From contig CAXXVS010000002.1 of NCBI GenBank assembly GCA_963674755.2, positions 1,504,001 to 1,568,000 of the forward strand: a stretch of DNA of 64,000 bases, given 5' to 3'. Numbering within the stretch: position 1 is the first letter of the stretch; the number at the start of each line of letters is the position of its first letter. This document shows, one piece after another, positions 56,898 to 64,000 of the stretch. This stretch comes from Desulfobacterales bacterium (GTDB taxonomy: Bacteria > Desulfobacterota > Desulfobacteria > Desulfobacterales > UBA5852). The notes beneath the pieces were generated by a model, which made no database searches, was not told the origin of the DNA, and saw nothing but the letters and a program-made list of their open reading frames with translations. Position numbers and translations under genes: made by a program.

Positions 56898-56988
56898 GCG
56901 ACTCCTCCTGCCTAGCGGGAGATCTCGGGAAGCCCTTTCGAAGGGGGCTTGAAAAAGGTTTCTGAGGTTCGGCTTTTGAATTTCCCTT

Positions 56989-57167
56989 TGTCCCGCGCTG
57001 AGCATCGGCGCGGCGGACGGATTAAAGCGCGCGGACTGTTTGAGTCCGCCGTAGCCTTGGCGAAGGCGGGCGAGTTTCCGCGTGCTCCGGCCGCCGTGAC
57101 GACGCGCAGGGAGAAGCGGGACACGGGCGTTTTCTTTTGCTTCCGTTTTCTTTCACGTGAAAGAAAA
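56989..57167. repeat. Nested multi-hairpin intergenic element
   Basis: TGTCCCGC/GCGGGACA outer stem, CCGCC-GTAGCCTTGGCGAA-GGCGG inner hairpin, perfect 22-bp palindrome TTTTCTTTCACGTGAAAGAAAA (57146-57167). Confidence 0.6.
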
Positions 57168-57316
57168 TGAAGAAACCAATTGATGTAAAGGCACCCCGGA
57201 TCGGTCGAACCTCTTCGCGTACTCCATCAGAGGTGGAGGGTTTAGAATAAAGAACAAAAAATGTCTCTGCTGACAAGCGTACCGCAACCCCTTAAAAACA
57301 ACGGAGCGTATACCCG

Positions 57317-58147: not shown

Positions 58148-58655
58148 CCGCGCTAAGGTGAGCGGTGTGTCGTTTACGCGATGGTATACAACCACCCGTT
58201 ACCGCATTTGCATAACTGGGATCCTAAAGCCCTATCCCCCTCTCGATCCCGGATAAACCCTATCGCCTGTCTTTGCATTTCCCATGCGCATTTTTCCCGT
58301 AAAAATTGCTCTCAAGTGATTGTAGGTATTGCAAGAGACCGTCGTATACAGTATATGCGAAATAGTTCTTTCCTTTGCTTCAAAAAATAATTGGGAAGGG
58401 GTTCGGTTTTTACCTACCCACAAGGCACCCAGTTCACATTCTTAGCCAATAACCTGCCCCCTCCTTTATCAGTTGTTTTTATTCAACCTTTCCTGTTTTG
58501 CCAAAATCTTGAATTCTTAAGGCTACCCTATAGGTACGCCTTTTCGAAAATAGTAAGTGGGTTTTTAGATCTCTTCTGCGGAGGCGGCGGGCTTCTGTTG
58601 ATGATTCATGTTCGCTAATCGAGTGTGATGAAATCGGATATTTGAAAGGACATAA

Positions 58656-58728
58656 GGATCAGGTCTCAATATTTACCAAACCAAAAGTCTGGTTCCAACT
58701 AATTTGTCAGATGTTGAGACCCGACCCC
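58656..58728. repeat. Junction hairpin repeat, copy A
   Basis: GGATCAGGTCTCAATATTT...AGATGTTGAGACCCGACCCC with inner AACCA/TGGTT stem. Confidence 0.85.
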
Positions 58729-58770
58729 TGATCCTTTTTCTGGACTAGAAGTGTCTCAAAATAATTTTCC

Positions 58771-58801
58771 GCGTAACTATGTCGCTGCGACATAATTACG
58801 C
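58771..58801. repeat. 31-bp near-perfect palindrome
   Basis: GCGTAACTATGTCGC-T-GCGACATAATTACGC (arms match 14/15). Confidence 0.8.
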
Positions 58802-58855
58802 TAATAAGCGGTAAAAGACGCAAATTGAGGAAAAGGTTGTGATCTACATATTTTG

Positions 58856-58883
58856 TTTACTTTAGGTATCACACTGTTATGAT
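58856..58883 (+). promoter_or_regulatory. Candidate sigma70 promoter ahead of the first cassette
   Basis: TTTACT-N16-TATGAT with extended -10 TG; AT-rich context weakens significance. Confidence 0.4.
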
Positions 58884-58985
58884 GTAAAAATATCAATAAA
58901 CGCGAAGTCATGCATCGAGACCCGAAAAGTGTCTCATATTTCAGTTTCCGTCAAAAAGTTGAAAACTATTTAATATTATAGTTCG

Positions 58986-59372
58986 ATGACCAATATGACA
59001 TCTACAAACAACAATATTCTCATCAATGCTGATGACACCGTAAGAGATATAGTGGACCGGATAATGGCAATTTTATCTGAAAATAAAGCCAATTTATCCA
59101 AATTGAAAAATGAAATATGCCTTCTTTTGGAGCACTTGACAACGGAAGAAGGAAGAACCGATCTAAATTGTAAGGCTGTCGATTATTATTTTATGAATAA
59201 TGACCTGTGGGCTGAAAAAGATTTCCCAGATGAATTGCATGATATTTTTGCGGACATCTCTGGGGCTTTGCACGATACAATTTCATCGCCTGATGTGGCA
59301 AAAAATTTTGATTCAACTCCAGAGCAACTGCTGGAAAGACTAAGAAAGGTTCGCATCGAACCAGGGCATTAA
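58986..59372 (+). CDS. Hypothetical cassette protein
   Basis: 128-aa ORF bracketed by GTTCGAT (58981) and ATCGAAC (59355); its stop lies inside the attC. Confidence 0.8.
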   Translation: MTNMTSTNNNILINADDTVRDIVDRIMAILSENKANLSKLKNEICLLLEHLTTEEGRTDLNCKAVDYYFMNNDLWAEKDFPDELHDIFADISGALHDTISSPDVAKNFDSTPEQLLERLRKVRIEPGH

Positions 59373-59416
59373 GGGCGACGGCCAAAAGCCGCCGCGCCTT
59401 ATGCCCGCCGTTAAGC
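59355..59416 (+). other. Integron attC site
   Basis: R'' ATCGAAC, stem GGGCAT(T)AAGG.GCG..CGGC-CAAAA-GCCG..CGCGCCTTATGCCC with an extrahelical base, R' GTTAAGC; 62 bp. Confidence 0.85.
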
Positions 59417-59430
59417 GTAAATTAAAACTT

Positions 59431-59940
59431 ATGGATATCGAACCAGAAATCAAAGAGCTTTCTGAGTTTTTAGACGAATTCAACAAAGAAAGCGACAGGG
59501 GCGCTGTTCTTAATGCTGCAACAGTCCTTGATGAATGGCTGCTAAGCATAATTAAAGAGTTTTTAGTGGATAACCAATCTTCGAAAGAACTGTTAACTGG
59601 ATTCAATGCTCCACTTGGCACTTTTTCTTCAAGAGCAGCTGCAGCACATGCGCTAGGGTTAATCCAAGACAATGAATTTCAAGAAATCACAACAATTAGA
59701 AAAATCAGAAATGAATTTGGTCACAACTAGAGAGGTATTTCATTCAAAACACAAAAAATCTCAGACCTTGCAAACAATTTACCGTGGCTTGGACCTCCTG
59801 AAATAGAGAAGCAATCAAGCCTAAGAGTGCGTTTTGATTTTGTGGTTGCTGTTTTATTAACAGATCTATTGTGGCGTTCTCGAATGATAAAAAACGAAAA
59901 AAGAGAAATGAAGATTTGGCCAAACAGAGCCAGAAAATAG
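59431..59940 (+). pseudogene. MtlR-like / HEPN-fold cassette gene with in-frame TAG
   Basis: ESDRGAVL..LDEWL, APLGTFSSR, IRKIRNEFGH; TAG at 59728-59730, then the same frame stays open for 69 more codons. Confidence 0.8.
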
Positions 59941-59949
59941 CTATGGCTC

Positions 59950-59974
59950 GCTTAACAAAGCCATTAAGACGGAC
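59950..59974 (+). other. Left half of a truncated attC
   Basis: GCTTAAC-AAAGCCATTAAGACGGAC just after the stop; GCTTAAC is the reverse complement of the cassette-start GTTAAGC; no matching right arm seen. Confidence 0.7.
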
Positions 59975-60056
59975 CGCAATCGCGCTCGATGAACGCAAGA
60001 GCAGTAGTCGTGGTGAGAAAACCGTTAACCCAAATTTCAGTGTAGGGATAAGATTG

Positions 60057-60186
60057 GGGTCGCATCTTAATTGTTAACTATTGACATCTGCGTTATATCA
60101 GTTCTCTATACCCTATACCGACCGACGATTCCGAAATAGAATGTGGTAACTTAAACATCGTATAATTAATAATTAAGATGCGACCC
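60057..60186. repeat. Junction hairpin repeat, long variant E
   Basis: GGGTCGCATCTTAATTGTTAACTAT / ATAATTAATAATTAAGATGCGACCC, arms match 23/25, ~80-bp loop. Confidence 0.85.
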
Positions 60187-60217
60187 TCTTTCTCTTCCTT
60201 ATGTATCGAAAAAACAA

Positions 60218-60859
60218 ATGGGTTTATTAATGAATGACGAAATATCAAAAGCTATAGCAAAAGCCGGCGTTGAGGGAGGGATAGAGGCTGCTAAGGGTTT
60301 TCTTAGAAGATTAGCAGGCCCTGCTGTTGATGAATTAGGATTTCTATTGCAGGATCAAGTAAGGTTTTTTAGGCTTAAAAATCAGCTAAAAATATTATCA
60401 AAAGCCCAAAATATGATACTAAAGTCTGGCCTTTCTCCAGGGGCTATCCCACTTAGGACTTTGATCCCGTTACTGGAGGGGGCAGCTCTAGAGAATGATG
60501 AATATCTATCCAGCAAGTGGGCTGCTTTATTGGCCAATGCATCCATCGGTAAAAATGATATTGCAACGCACCCATCATTCCCACACATCCTTTCGCAACT
60601 CTCACCAGATGAGGCTTTGTTTTTGGATAAATTGGAAACATATGGTGGCGAGACTAATTGGAGTATATTCCGTAGAAATTTTGCTGCCGATTTTTCGAAG
60701 TCTATTGAAGAAGTAGATCAATATTTTGGAAACCTATTTCGCTTAGCACTGTGTCGAATATCTAACAAGGAAGCAGGAAAGCCATATAGCTCGTTATCAA
60801 TTGGGCCATTTGGCAAAAAATTCCTAAAAGCGTGCTCTTCTATCGACAATAATGCATAG
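60218..60859 (+). CDS. Abi-alpha / DUF4393-like protein
   Basis: PLLEGAALEND..L..KWAALLANAS, HPSF..ILSQLSPDEA.FL. Confidence 0.75.
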   Translation: MGLLMNDEISKAIAKAGVEGGIEAAKGFLRRLAGPAVDELGFLLQDQVRFFRLKNQLKILSKAQNMILKSGLSPGAIPLRTLIPLLEGAALENDEYLSSKWAALLANASIGKNDIATHPSFPHILSQLSPDEALFLDKLETYGGETNWSIFRRNFAADFSKSIEEVDQYFGNLFRLALCRISNKEAGKPYSSLSIGPFGKKFLKACSSIDNNA

Positions 60860-60942
60860 TCAGTTGTTGGCGCATACAGAAAATATTTCTCGATTCTATA
60901 ATATCTTGTTTGATTAACTATTTTTAAATATACTTAGCTATT

Positions 60943-62094
60943 ATGAATAGGCCAATAACCCGCGAAAACCCTATGTTTCGGACAGGAAGCGATATCAATC
61001 TTAACGCTTGTGTAGGTTATAATGGATTTCCGAACATCCACACCTATCAGTTTGGGTACCATCAAGCTGTAGTCTCATTAATTGCGACCGCAAAAGAGAA
61101 GACCTACGATTCGGATTCATTGATTTACCCAATTTTATTTTGTGCAAGGCATGCGATAGAGCTTTTTCTCAAAAAACAAATTTATCTTTTATCAGATGTT
61201 AAGGCTATTACTTTGGATAGTGATTCTGAGAACCGCCTGCTAACTGCACACAGCTTGTATTCTTTATGGAATAATTTCAAAGACCTCTCAAAAATAGATA
61301 AGAGGTATGACTCCTTTATCGATAAATTGGAGCCTCATATTAAATGTTTTTGTGATGTGGATGATACGGGCCAAACTTTTCGATACCCCTTGGATGTAGA
61401 TGGCAAACGTCATCTAACAGAGTTCGGTTGCATCAATATCGGAATTTTCAGCAAAAAATATGAATCGATGTATAAAATCATCGAAGAAGTCGTTCTTCTG
61501 ACTGAGTATATTAAAGCCGAGTACAAACAGGGCACATTTATTAAAGAATTGTCTAGAGAACAAATTTCTGAAATTGCTCACATGCTTCCGATAAGAAGGA
61601 ATTGGGTTACAGATGACTTTTCAAAAGCGAAAAACGATATTTGTGCTGAATATGGCATAGGCTCAAGAACCTTTTCAAGGACTCTTAACCTGATTCAGAA
61701 GCACCGGGAGTTTGCATCATATATTGGGATGGAACTGCCCTTAAATGAGATTACTTCACACGAATTGAAAATATTTATCAATTTGTTTAATAAACACAGA
61801 AAAAGATTCAGAACTGATGATTATATCGCCATTATAAATGATTTCCCAAACGAGGTATGCGAAAACCTTTCGAACGATAATATTTATGCTATTTCGGCTA
61901 TTTTTGACATATCATTTTTTGATTTATTCAGTGAAGAGTATGATTCTGACATTGAAAGAAATAGAAAGCGTGATGATCCATTTGGTATTGTATTCAATAA
62001 TATATCTGTAAGGCGTGGCATTGTCTTAAAACATATAAAACGTGGGCTTGGTAGATTAGGCCAGATAACTTTACTCAAAGTTTTTGACGAATAA
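60943..62094 (+). CDS. Hypothetical protein, possible HEPN-like N-terminal domain
   Basis: 383-aa ORF; D.LIYPILF..RHAIELFLK, HSL..LW, D..GQTFRYP. Confidence 0.75.
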   Translation: MNRPITRENPMFRTGSDINLNACVGYNGFPNIHTYQFGYHQAVVSLIATAKEKTYDSDSLIYPILFCARHAIELFLKKQIYLLSDVKAITLDSDSENRLLTAHSLYSLWNNFKDLSKIDKRYDSFIDKLEPHIKCFCDVDDTGQTFRYPLDVDGKRHLTEFGCINIGIFSKKYESMYKIIEEVVLLTEYIKAEYKQGTFIKELSREQISEIAHMLPIRRNWVTDDFSKAKNDICAEYGIGSRTFSRTLNLIQKHREFASYIGMELPLNEITSHELKIFINLFNKHRKRFRTDDYIAIINDFPNEVCENLSNDNIYAISAIFDISFFDLFSEEYDSDIERNRKRDDPFGIVFNNISVRRGIVLKHIKRGLGRLGQITLLKVFDE

Positions 62095-62103
62095 GAAGGA
62101 TCA

Positions 62104-62185
62104 CTGGGTCAGATCTCAACATTTTACAGCCCAGTAATAACGGTTCCAGCAAAATAAAGTTGTCAAACGTTGAGATCAGACTCAG
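62104..62185. repeat. Junction hairpin repeat, copy B
   Basis: CTGGGTCAGATCTCAACATTT...TTGTCAAACGTTGAGATCAGACTCAG, starting 10 bp after the preceding stop. Confidence 0.88.
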
Positions 62186-62334
62186 CGGTTTTTTTAATTT
62201 CAGATATTCGGATGAAATTCCTGTCAATCACTAGTTAGAAATAAAATAATGAGCAGAAACCTTACCAGAATATTTAAAAAATTAAATTTTAAACATCGGA
62301 TTCTACTTTCAAAACACAACGATCGTAGACTCCA

Positions 62335-62919
62335 ATGGAAAGTTTTAGAAAAAAAGCTGAATCAATTTTCAATGAAATAATTCAGCAAGCAAAGGATTGT
62401 AGCTTTTGGGAAAATCTTTATATTCAAAAAAGTCCAGAAAAGTGTAAAACCATATTTGAAGGTGAGAAGTATTTAAATTTCAATATGATTGCACTTTCAT
62501 ATGGGAGTCATCCAACAGATATATCCGTCGAGATATACAAATCTGGAAAAAGAGTAAACGAACGTACAATTTCAGAAACCGGGGGTGCATTCTTAATTTC
62601 CCAGATTCCAAACGGTGGCGTCACTTTTTATCTATATTCTTCTAGTTCTGAATTGCATAAAGCAGATGAATATCCAAAACTGATAAGAGTATACAAAAAG
62701 CCATGTGATGTAAAAGAAAGGCAAATTTGGAGATGTGCAATTCGATTACTAAATTTTTCACATGACACCTCTTATGCTTCTTTCTATCCTTACCATAAAT
62801 ATTTGTATGAGCTTGCGAATAAACATAAAAGAGATTTTTTATTTTTATTGATCGGTGCTTTTATGTCTTATTTTATAGCATTTATTTTTGAAAACTTAAC
62901 AAATATTTTTTCTGGATGA
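62335..62919 (+). CDS. Hypothetical cassette protein with C-terminal TM helix (possibly frameshifted from a start at 62249)
   Basis: 194-aa ORF bracketed by GTTAGAA (62234) and TTCTAAC (62926). Confidence 0.75.
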   Translation: MESFRKKAESIFNEIIQQAKDCSFWENLYIQKSPEKCKTIFEGEKYLNFNMIALSYGSHPTDISVEIYKSGKRVNERTISETGGAFLISQIPNGGVTFYLYSSSSELHKADEYPKLIRVYKKPCDVKERQIWRCAIRLLNFSHDTSYASFYPYHKYLYELANKHKRDFLFLLIGAFMSYFIAFIFENLTNIFSG

Positions 62920-62969
62920 AATAATTTCTAACAAGTGCGAAATCGCAGTCTTTTATCGAAAGAGAATGA

Positions 62970-63042
62970 GGGTTGGCTTTTAACATTTTATAAACCAAAA
63001 CTTATGGTTTCAACTAATTTGCTAAATGTTGAAAACTGGCAC
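62970..63042. repeat. Junction hairpin repeat, copy C (degenerate)
   Basis: GGGTTGGCTTTTAACATTTTATAAACCAAAACTTATGGTTTCAACTAATTTGCTAAATGTTGAAAACTGGCAC aligns with copies A, B and D. Confidence 0.8.
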
Positions 63043-63080
63043 AAGATTATTTTCGTAACTTAGTTAGGCGAGAAGAAAAT

Positions 63081-63659
63081 ATGAAAGTAGAAATTATAAT
63101 ACCACTAATTGGTGTACTTCTTGGTTGGTTTCTAAATGAAATCAGTCAGGCAATTAGACAAAGCAGAGAAAATAAACCCTTTTTGGCACAAGCTATTGGT
63201 TCAATTTGTTGCATTTTATTCATACTTGAACGTAAAAGAAACTATTTAAACAGTGCTATCTACGCGGGAAAGCTCAGCGAGCACGGACACGAATTTTTAA
63301 ACTCTATCCTGCAAAACAAAGAAAATGAAATTAGAACCATAAGGGAAAAATCAGTATCAGCTGTTTCAAACCTAGACAAATTTGAACCTTTTATCTCACA
63401 TGAGTTAGACTTTTTCATGTTATATGCCTTAGATCTTGATGAAAAGATACAAAATAAATTACATAATATTGAAACGAACCTTGAAGAAATTCAGCGATTA
63501 GTAAGAGAGTTGAATATTGCTATTAAAAAATTTCATTTTATTATAAAGAAACTGACGTTAAAGCACAGCGTCTCAATGTATTTTAAGTATAGATGTGAAG
63601 CAAGAAAGAATAATAGTGACAAGATAGATTCTTTTGTTGAGGTATTCCAGCAAATTTAA
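63081..63659 (+). CDS. Hypothetical cassette protein, N-terminal TM helix plus helical domain
   Basis: IIPLIGVLLGWFLNE; preceded by the core-like GTTAGGC (63063-63069). Confidence 0.78.
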   Translation: MKVEIIIPLIGVLLGWFLNEISQAIRQSRENKPFLAQAIGSICCILFILERKRNYLNSAIYAGKLSEHGHEFLNSILQNKENEIRTIREKSVSAVSNLDKFEPFISHELDFFMLYALDLDEKIQNKLHNIETNLEEIQRLVRELNIAIKKFHFIIKKLTLKHSVSMYFKYRCEARKNNSDKIDSFVEVFQQI

Positions 63660-63674
63660 AGAATAAGAGCCATT

Positions 63675-63747
63675 GGGTCAGATATCAACATTTTACGAAC
63701 CAGAAATTATGGCTCGAACTAAATTGTCAAATTATTTGATCTAACAC
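63675..63747. repeat. Junction hairpin repeat, copy D
   Basis: GGGTCAGATATCAACATTTTACGAACCAGAAATTATGGCTCGAACTAAATTGTCAAATTATTTGATCTAACAC. Confidence 0.82.
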
Positions 63748-63812
63748 GGATTCTTTTTTGAGATACGAAGCGCATTTCTTTTCTATTTTCCGAACTCGAT
63801 ATGGAGTAACAA

Positions 63813-64000
63813 ATGAAATGTTTCATTATCATGCCAATTACCACTCCTGCTGAGTGGGCACATCATTATGGCAACGATCCTGACCACTTCTCAAACGTCA
63901 TAGAGTATCTTTTCATTCCTGCAATTAAAGCGGCAAATATGGAACCTATACCACCTAGTTCCGAAGCCTCCCAGATAATCCATTCTGATATTATTTCAAA
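63813..64000 (+). CDS. Nucleoside 2-deoxyribosyltransferase-like domain protein (3' end outside window; not in the ORF track)
   Basis: GGAG RBS; MKCFIIMPITTPAEWAHHYGNDPDHFSNVIEYLFIPAIKAANMEPIPPSSEASQIIHSDIIS. Confidence 0.7.
   Translation, partial: MKCFIIMPITTPAEWAHHYGNDPDHFSNVIEYLFIPAIKAANMEPIPPSSEASQIIHSDIIS

What the first reader, a model, noticed from the sequence alone, without database searches (positions are those of the whole stretch)
58981..63069. Cargo genes are former integron cassettes, with no integrase in the window (CALIN-like)
Seen: three genes are each bracketed by exactly complementary 7-mers: GTTCGAT (58981) / ATCGAAC (59355), GTTAAGC (59410) / GCTTAAC (59950), and GTTAGAA (62234) / TTCTAAC (62926). 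A fourth gene starts after GTTAGGC (63063). One complete 62-bp attC survives (59355-59416). Established: in an integrated cassette, the 5' GTTRRRY-type core is complementary to that cassette's own R'' site. No intI-like ORF was found in 58150-58980.
Basis: partly seen in the sequence, partly recalled or inferred. Interest (0 to 1): 0.75.

Follow-up and report, generated by a model that had tools for sequence, protein, structure and literature searches.

The report
Orphan integron docking site with cassettes
These genes are real integron cassettes that still sit behind a complete gene-docking site, but only the last three codons of the recombinase gene beside it remain, so the array is likely served by the one intact recombinase 776 kb away, and small inverted-repeat mini-elements now stand where most of its other recombination sites would be.

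Summary
Observation confirmed: all seven heptamers are in place. The bracket pattern is rare by chance (1 of 198 AT-rich ORFs outside arrays), and an attC model built from non-window sites hits 59355-59416 (E 1.2e-6). The reading needs correcting. 58740-58983 is a full ~245-bp attI platform (E 7e-13, model without the window), preceded by the last three intI codons, so GTTCGAT at 58981 is the attI crossover. 62189-62240 is likely a second attI type. An intact intI lies 776 kb away. Only one attC scores, so the strict CALIN definition (two or more) is not met. TIRYT-type inverted-repeat mini-elements sit at the intI deletion point and at 4 of 6 gene junctions. In relatives they are not near attC (0 of 19 loci), which argues against attC targeting. 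Best reading: a decaying satellite integron, likely served in trans. Same-locus integrase-free platforms in relatives carry different first cassettes, including one empty/filled pair. The scan noted both features before, on other DNA of this and other genomes. New variant of a known kind.

The parts
58656..58728 (.). Family-A inverted-repeat mini-element (A1), at the intI deletion junction
   Evidence: the same ends bracket ~1.04-kb Y1/TIRYT transposase elements elsewhere
58740..58748 (+). Last three codons of intI (Leu-Asp-stop)
   Evidence: aligns with the ends of intI genes; contigs of other organisms match from 58740 and carry the intI C-terminal codons (K-N-R-H-G-V-V-S-P) just before it
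58749..58987 (+). attI platform of the reverse-layout integron family of this genus; crossover G|TT at 58981/58982
   Evidence: nhmmer model from 3 intI-linked platforms without the window: model positions 5-248 of 252, E 7.4e-13; 79-90% identical to platforms in G004 and G001; 15 of 20 platforms with a readable core are followed by a cassette whose R'' is the exact complement, attC judged by eye
58982..59410 (+). Cassette 1 (429 bp), complete; gene 58986-59372, 128 aa, function unknown
   Evidence: bracket; 2 of 2 relatives are cassettes; no Pfam, NCBIfam or PADLOC family above cut-off
59355..59416 (+). Intact attC, 62 bp, folds on the bottom strand
   Evidence: R2 33.1 bits, E 1.2e-6; fold
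59431..59940 (+). Cassette 2 gene, weakly MtlR/MltR-like, broken by an in-frame TAG at 59728
   Evidence: PF05068 E 2.5e-5, below cut-off; NF008234 E 4e-6; contigs of X1/X2 agree letter for letter (they may be the window's source)
59950..60055 (+). Left part (R'', L'', loop) of a long-type attC; the right arm is missing
   Evidence: sequence; no R2 hit
60056..60186 (.). Family-B inverted-repeat mini-element (B1)
   Evidence: further copies in the C1:726-729 kb array and beyond the window
60230..60859 (+). Abi_alpha-family gene without att marks; likely an ex-cassette
   Evidence: PF14337 E 3.4e-22; PADLOC PDC-S47 E 5.9e-13; 3 of 6 distant relatives lie in cassettes
60943..62094 (+). 383-aa gene of unknown family, no att marks
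   Evidence: no family hit
62106..62183 (.). Family-A mini-element (A2)
62189..62240 (+). Likely second attI type; crossover at 62234
   Evidence: 5 further copies (3 in this genome, G004:C12, G008:C9), each before a different gene; 2 of the 5 have an exact and 1 a near complement followed by an attC or attC remnant; no intI found beside any
62249..62919 (+). Cassette 3 gene, frameshifted (ATG 62249 frame stops after 43 aa; the ORF at 62335 runs to 62919)
   Evidence: bracket GTTAGAA/TTCTAAC
62926..63069 (+). attC remnant: R'' at 62926 and R' at 63063 with a worn family-A element (62970-63042) between them
   Evidence: fold z -1.8, 11 of 200 shuffles as good; no R2 hit; A3 identified
63081..63659 (+). 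Cassette-like gene after GTTAGGC; no R'' at its end
   Evidence: no relative in 300 phylum genomes
63675..63747 (.). Family-A mini-element (A4)
63813..64000 (+). Start of a further island gene (to 64563); the island continues to about 65.7 kb with A5 and a B half

Best explanation
This is a truncated integron that kept its attI docking platform and first cassettes but lost all of intI except the last three codons, and it is likely loaded and unloaded in trans by the one intact IntI elsewhere in the genome. SHOWN: the attI platform, its G|TT crossover, complete cassette 1 with a folding attC, half attC sites after cassettes 2 and 3, an intact intI 776 kb away with its catalytic motifs, and inverted-repeat mini-elements whose ends are those of Y1 (TIRYT) transposase elements. 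INFERRED, step 1: an integron copy of the reverse layout lost intI, with mini-element A1 marking the deletion end. Step 2: IntI inserted cassettes at G|TT (attC x attI). Step 3: further mini-elements, likely moved by a TIRYT enzyme, landed in the AT-rich array and went with deletions that removed attC halves and brought in a second attI-headed segment at 62189. This froze most genes, and two of them decayed. Step 4: cassette 1 would still be excisable and the site would still accept cassettes.
For: Platform. attC: (the predicted circular-form attC folds at -23.1 kcal/mol with a 7-bp R box). Relatives of cargo genes in cassettes. Intact intI: TIGR02249 415.5 bits (cut-off 265), no stops, motifs present. 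Orphan platforms are the norm in the genus: of 27 platform loci examined (native locus not among them), 3 have a full intI, 5 a partial one, 3 a tip of about 14-17 codons, and 16 nothing or about 3 codons. Use after intI loss: G000:C3:2579 kb and G004:C20 share the integrase-free junction (80-90% upstream identity) but have different first cassettes; G010:C7 and G001:C3 are 94.7% identical over 1500 bp upstream and share nothing downstream; G001 and G010 give an empty/filled pair with an 847-bp cassette exactly at G|TT. Mini-elements: 16 of 22 complete dimers outside the window lie within 10 kb of an attC, against a background of 5.9%, or 25% of GC<50% DNA; there are none in the array with the intact intI. 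They sit at intI junctions also at G000:C1:481.5 kb, G001:C3 and G004:C19.
Against: No recombination was observed: the laid contigs show no joint that excises cassette 1 (contigs drop rare variants). The window's platform groups with G004 and G001 platforms, not with the native one (support 98/96), and those two genomes have no intI over the cut-off. The window's core also differs at two letters from its closest relatives, so the resident IntI may not use it. In the empty/filled pair the upstream junctions differ, so intI loss there may be independent. The 16 dimers fall in only 5 arrays, so they are not independent. Most orphan platforms have no inverted-repeat element at the junction, so these elements are not required for intI loss. 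No TIRYT gene with family-A or family-B ends was found in this genome; a family-A one is in G004. The promoter scan of the platform is at chance level (2 found, 2.0 expected).
Confidence: 0.7

Rival explanations
1. A dead relic: the same anatomy, but all cassettes were captured before intI was lost, and the resident IntI does not recognise this platform subtype.
For: Platform subtype differs from the native one; two core substitutions; two broken genes and one intact attC; no excision joint seen.
Against: The platform is kept over its full 245 bp at 79-90% identity to copies at unrelated loci; orphan platforms in relatives differ in first cassette; cassette 1 and its attC are intact.
Confidence: 0.2
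2. The inverted-repeat mini-elements are themselves a gene-capture system: a TIRYT HUH transposase joins gene-bearing segments at them, in place of attC.
For: Five family-A copies, 62-73% identical to each other and co-oriented; four of them follow a gene stop within about 50 bp. Enriched in integrase-free arrays. One abuts a bare attI core at C1:730.6 kb. An Abi_alpha relative has its attC cut by a similar element (L212).
Against: Family-A ends elsewhere are mostly not in arrays: attC in 2 of 74 loci across phyla and 0 of 19 in the genus; intI in 0 of 80. R2 models short attC sites only, so these counts are lower bounds. No cargo gene was seen with such elements on both sides in another genome. 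The likeness of the B end to the missing attC arm is not special (score 9; 1 of 35 other attC scores 10).
Confidence: 0.06
3. Cassettes were dropped at secondary genomic sites (attG), as described for SALINs and small CALINs, with no integron platform here.
For: The route exists (10.1101/2022.09.11.507474, passages); only one attC scores.
Against: The first cassette sits exactly at the crossover of a full attI platform that carries the intI tip.
Confidence: 0.04

Closest known systems
CALIN / SALIN (Cury et al. 2016, PMC4889954; Loot et al., 10.1101/2022.09.11.507474; passages read)
   Same: attC cassettes with no nearby intI; the paper names integrase loss as an origin and allows that such arrays stay linked to an integrase elsewhere
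   Different: This one keeps a full attI platform and the intI tip, has a likely second attI type, and has only one scoring attC. The paper says attI cannot be searched for in most integrons, so such platforms would go unseen.
Sedentary chromosomal integron with attI downstream of intI (reverse layout); the resident integron at C2:2.32-2.34 Mb; attI downstream of intI is also reported for archaea (10.1101/2022.02.06.479319, passages)
   Same: same platform architecture, same crossover position, same attC style
   Different: intI deleted; platform of another subtype; array broken up by mini-elements
TIRtrons / TIRYT and their TIR repeat families (Di Nocera 2013, PMC3733652; TnpA-Y1 subclass 2.1 in Quentin 2018, PMC6006769; passages)
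   Same: ends fit the GGGGWSAS motif; the same ends bracket ~320-aa Y1 transposases; short head-to-head dimers
   Different: no link to integrons in the passages read; here they crowd integrase-free arrays of one genome
attC-targeting elements: group IIC-attC introns (PMC3001079, search listing only) and IS1111-attC (recalled)
   Same: mobile elements found at attC positions
   Different: those insert at a fixed base and keep both attC halves (recalled); these sit at variable positions with loss of flanking DNA and show no attC link in relatives

Membership tests
Integron gene cassette | 5' GTT core complementary to the cassette's own R'' | tested here: met
   3 pairs exact; background 1 of 198
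Integron gene cassette | attC that folds on the bottom strand with R and L boxes | tested here: met
   cassette 1 only; cassettes 2-4 have partial or no attC
Integron gene cassette | relatives lie in attC arrays | tested here: met
   2 of 2 for cassette 1; 3 of 6 for the Abi_alpha gene; none found for the 63081 gene; the other genes were not searched this way
Integron gene cassette | IntI-dependent excision or insertion | not testable with these tools
   needs an assay; no joint in contigs
CALIN | no intI nearby | tested here: met
   only 3 codons remain
CALIN | at least two attC sites less than 4 kb apart | tested here: not met
   one hit with my model R2; IntegronFinder's own model was not available and might score the remnants
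Complete integron | intI adjacent to the array | tested here: not met
   nearest intact intI 776 kb away
Complete integron | attI site | tested here: met
   by homology and comparative crossover mapping; function untested
Complete integron | Pc promoter | tested here: inconclusive
   one sigma-70-like site at 58856-58883, chance level; no RNA run listed
TIR repeats of TIRYT | terminal inverted repeats with the GGGGWSAS-type motif | tested here: met
   the window copies are worn (16-21 of 24 matches for the ends read in register)
TIR repeats of TIRYT | same ends flank a Y1/HUH transposase gene | tested here: met
   family A: Y1 gene in 13 of 80 loci, three of them overlapping pairs, full elements and G004:C2; family B: no such gene found
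TIR repeats of TIRYT | mobilisation by the transposase | not testable with these tools
   none
attC-targeting mobile element | consistent insertion at attC across hosts | tested here: not met
   2 of 74 and 0 of 19 loci have an attC nearby

The most novel reading that the evidence does not exclude
In this genus the integron is a distributed system: one integrase serves many stand-alone attI platforms spread over the chromosome, and TIRYT mini-elements cut integrase genes off their platforms and splice attI-headed segments into composite defence-gene islands while erasing attC sites, so that cassettes become fixed genes.
Probability: 0.3. Interest if true: 0.7.

Novelty: new variant of a known kind. 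Interest (0 to 1): 0.48.

Why it matters
The origin of integrase-free cassette arrays is open: 95% of CALINs have no recognisable intI pseudogene (PMC4889954), and off-target insertion has been proposed instead. Here the intI remnant is three codons long, far below what a pseudogene search detects, and the attI platform survives. Some CALINs may therefore be truncated integrons that still take up genes. The locus gives a directly testable pair (resident IntI, orphan attI) and shows intermediate steps by which cassettes, including an Abi_alpha-type candidate defence gene, lose their att sites.

Tried and rejected
Rfam gathering scan of the window: 0 hits. Rfam on the intI 5' flank: 0 hits. My strict heuristic attC finder missed the window's attC. 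Model R1 had no base pairs and was not used. 62926-63069 as a second intact attC: not supported, because the fold is weak, R2 gives no hit and a family-A element fills it. Homology-guided insertion of element B into attC 2: rejected. Short GGGGAC-type patterns were mostly chance matches (183 loci, 36 within 10 kb of an attC); I dropped these and the half-elements and counted only 22 complete dimers outside the window. The conserved motif upstream of intI was not found in the window. The same chromosomal locus was not found in 12 genus genomes; only distant SDR matches came up. The cargo DNA was not found in 5 close genomes. No integrase was found for the second attI type in 400 order genomes. 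No RNA holder listed. Run X4 holds only a small share and was used only for flank comparison. The protein atlas gave no answer for the 383-aa protein. Nine literature searches showed no paper describing attI-bearing integrase-free arrays or TIR repeats in integron arrays. The library lacks most subscription papers, and no supplements were read. The passages of PMC9229058 that I saw did not show a CALIN with its own attI. No folding or complex jobs were run.
Full report
Setting. The window is G000:C2:1504001-1568000. GC falls from 60% to about 36% at 58.7 kb, and the AT-rich island runs on to about 65.7 kb, past the window end.

Observation. All seven heptamers are at the stated places and the three pairs are exact complements. 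Outside array regions the same bracket occurs in 1 of 198 AT-rich and 23 of 12,767 GC-rich ORFs; in the island it occurs in 3 of 8 genes. A covariance model from 10 attC sites elsewhere in the genome hits 59355-59416 at 33.1 bits, E 1.2e-6, and nothing else in the window below E 1. It gives 40 hits at E up to 1 genome-wide. There is no intI gene in the window. Both relatives of the cassette-1 protein found in metagenomes are attC cassettes, one with the same unusual GTTCG start and the same attC style. Of 6 relatives of the Abi_alpha gene in 300 phylum genomes, 3 are in cassettes and 3 are not. The 63081 gene has no relative there.

An attI platform. The genome has one intact integron integrase, at C2:2339256-2340191 (415.5 bits, cut-off 265, no stops), 776 kb from 58981, with its array downstream in the same direction. 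The DNA after its stop codon resembles window 58740-58983. A profile from three intI-linked platforms, window excluded, matches the window over model positions 5-248 of 252 at E 7.4e-13. The match begins with the codons Leu-Asp-stop. Contigs from other organisms match from 58740 and carry the intI C-terminal codons just before it; others diverge right after the GTT at 58983. Of 22 platform loci in the genus, 20 have a readable core. In 15 of the 20 the heptamer starting at that GTT has its exact complement after the first gene, followed by an attC that I judged by eye, and the first genes differ. So GTTCGAT at 58981 is the attI crossover. The stretch before the third bracket (62189-62236) recurs five times elsewhere, each time before a different gene. 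Two of the five have an exact and one a near complement plus attC or a remnant. It is likely a second attI type; no integrase was found beside any copy.

Orphan platforms are common. A platform model hits 11 of 13 genus genomes; an intI over the cut-off is in 5 of 13. Of 27 loci examined, 3 have full intI, 5 partial, 3 a short tip and 16 nothing or about three codons. Many keep a motif from the 5' flank of intI, which the window lacks. Same-locus pairs without intI have different downstream DNA. G000:C3:2579 kb and G004:C20 share the junction and differ in first cassette. G001 and G010 give an empty/filled pair with an 847-bp cassette at G|TT, though their upstream junctions differ. Against activity here: the window platform clusters with those of G004 and G001, not with the native one; its core has two changes; and no excision joint was seen.

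Mini-elements. Palindromic elements sit at 58656, 60056, 62106, 62970, 63675 and beyond. That is the intI junction and 4 of the 6 junctions between the seven genes from 58986 to 63813. The family-A copies are 62-73% identical and co-oriented. Their ends bracket ~1.04-kb Y1 transposase elements in other bacteria (Y1 gene in 13 of 80 loci fetched, of at least 128 matches) and in G004. A third family in this genome has the ends of the Y1 gene at C1:916 kb. These fit TIRtrons/TIRYT (PMC3733652 and PMC6006769, passages). In this genome 16 of 22 complete dimers outside the window lie within 10 kb of an attC (background 5.9%, or 25% for GC<50% DNA), in five arrays, and none is in the array with the intact intI. 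In other genomes the link fails: 2 of 74 and 0 of 19 loci have an attC. They therefore mark local rearrangement points and are not shown to target attC or to capture genes.

Decay. Cassette 2 has an in-frame stop and cassette 3 a frameshift; contigs of X1 and X2, possibly the window's source, agree with both. Cassette 1 is whole, and its predicted circular attC folds canonically. The cargo includes an Abi_alpha gene (PF14337, E 3e-22; PDC-S47, E 6e-13) and, past the window, a gene with weak nucleoside-deoxyribosyltransferase and TIR-effector hits, which suggests defence functions, untested.

Comparison and verdict. CALINs need two attC sites, and their authors note that attI cannot be searched for in most integrons and that 95% lack intI pseudogenes (PMC4889954, passages). 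In-trans mobilisation is asserted in 10.1101/2025.06.18.660453 (passages), and attG insertion is the alternative origin (10.1101/2022.09.11.507474, passages). Also seen as passages: 10.1101/2022.02.06.479319 and PMC9229058. PMC3001079 and PMC3184786 were seen only as search listings; IS1111-attC is recalled. Nine searches found no paper on attI-bearing orphan arrays or on TIR repeats in arrays, within a limited library. Earlier notes of this scan report orphan attI platforms and TIR repeats on other DNA of this genome and orphan platforms in other genomes; I had reached both readings before looking (notes). Verdict: the feature is real and best read as a decaying satellite integron, a new variant of a known kind, interest 0.48.

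Noticed in passing
window 58555-58600: A short reading frame piece (F-L-D-L-F-C-G-G-G-G) resembles motif I of C5 DNA methyltransferases (resemblance recalled); possibly a gene remnant left of element A1. No match elsewhere in the genome by tblastx.
   Followed up: partly
G000:C2:2340659-2340720 and upstream of many platforms: A conserved GC-rich motif ending in a small GCAA-loop hairpin lies upstream of intI and is kept at platforms that lost intI; no Rfam hit. It may be a leader RNA or the element's left end.
   Followed up: partly
G000:C3:2471000, 2477040, 2490950 (L015, L016): A third attI-like repeated sequence (palindrome plus ...AAT-N5-GTT) heads cassettes three times in one integrase-free island.
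   Followed up: no
G000:C1:730626-730710 (L011): A family-C mini-element abuts a bare attI core that heads a complete cassette.
   Followed up: partly
G000:C2:2331125 and 2333073 (L006): Two attC-like sites in the array of the intact integron read best on the opposite strand to the rest; inverted cassettes or near-symmetric sites.
   Followed up: no
G000:C3:1409422 and C1:756585: Fragments of a second, different IntI type, each followed by its own flank and cassettes.
   Followed up: no
G000:C2:1977406-1978105 (L020): An IS200-type transposase gene sits inside a family-C mini-element.
   Followed up: no
window 56940-57250: An intergenic stretch matched at high depth by many other contigs in all four runs; a repeated element upstream of the SDR gene.
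   Followed up: no
L042 (G004:C19:7562-7900): An intI 3' fragment cut off by a family-B element, followed by a REP-like sequence and another Y1-like gene.
   Followed up: partly
G001 and G004 (97-98% complete): They hold 4 and 7 platform hits but no intI over the family cut-off.
   Followed up: partly
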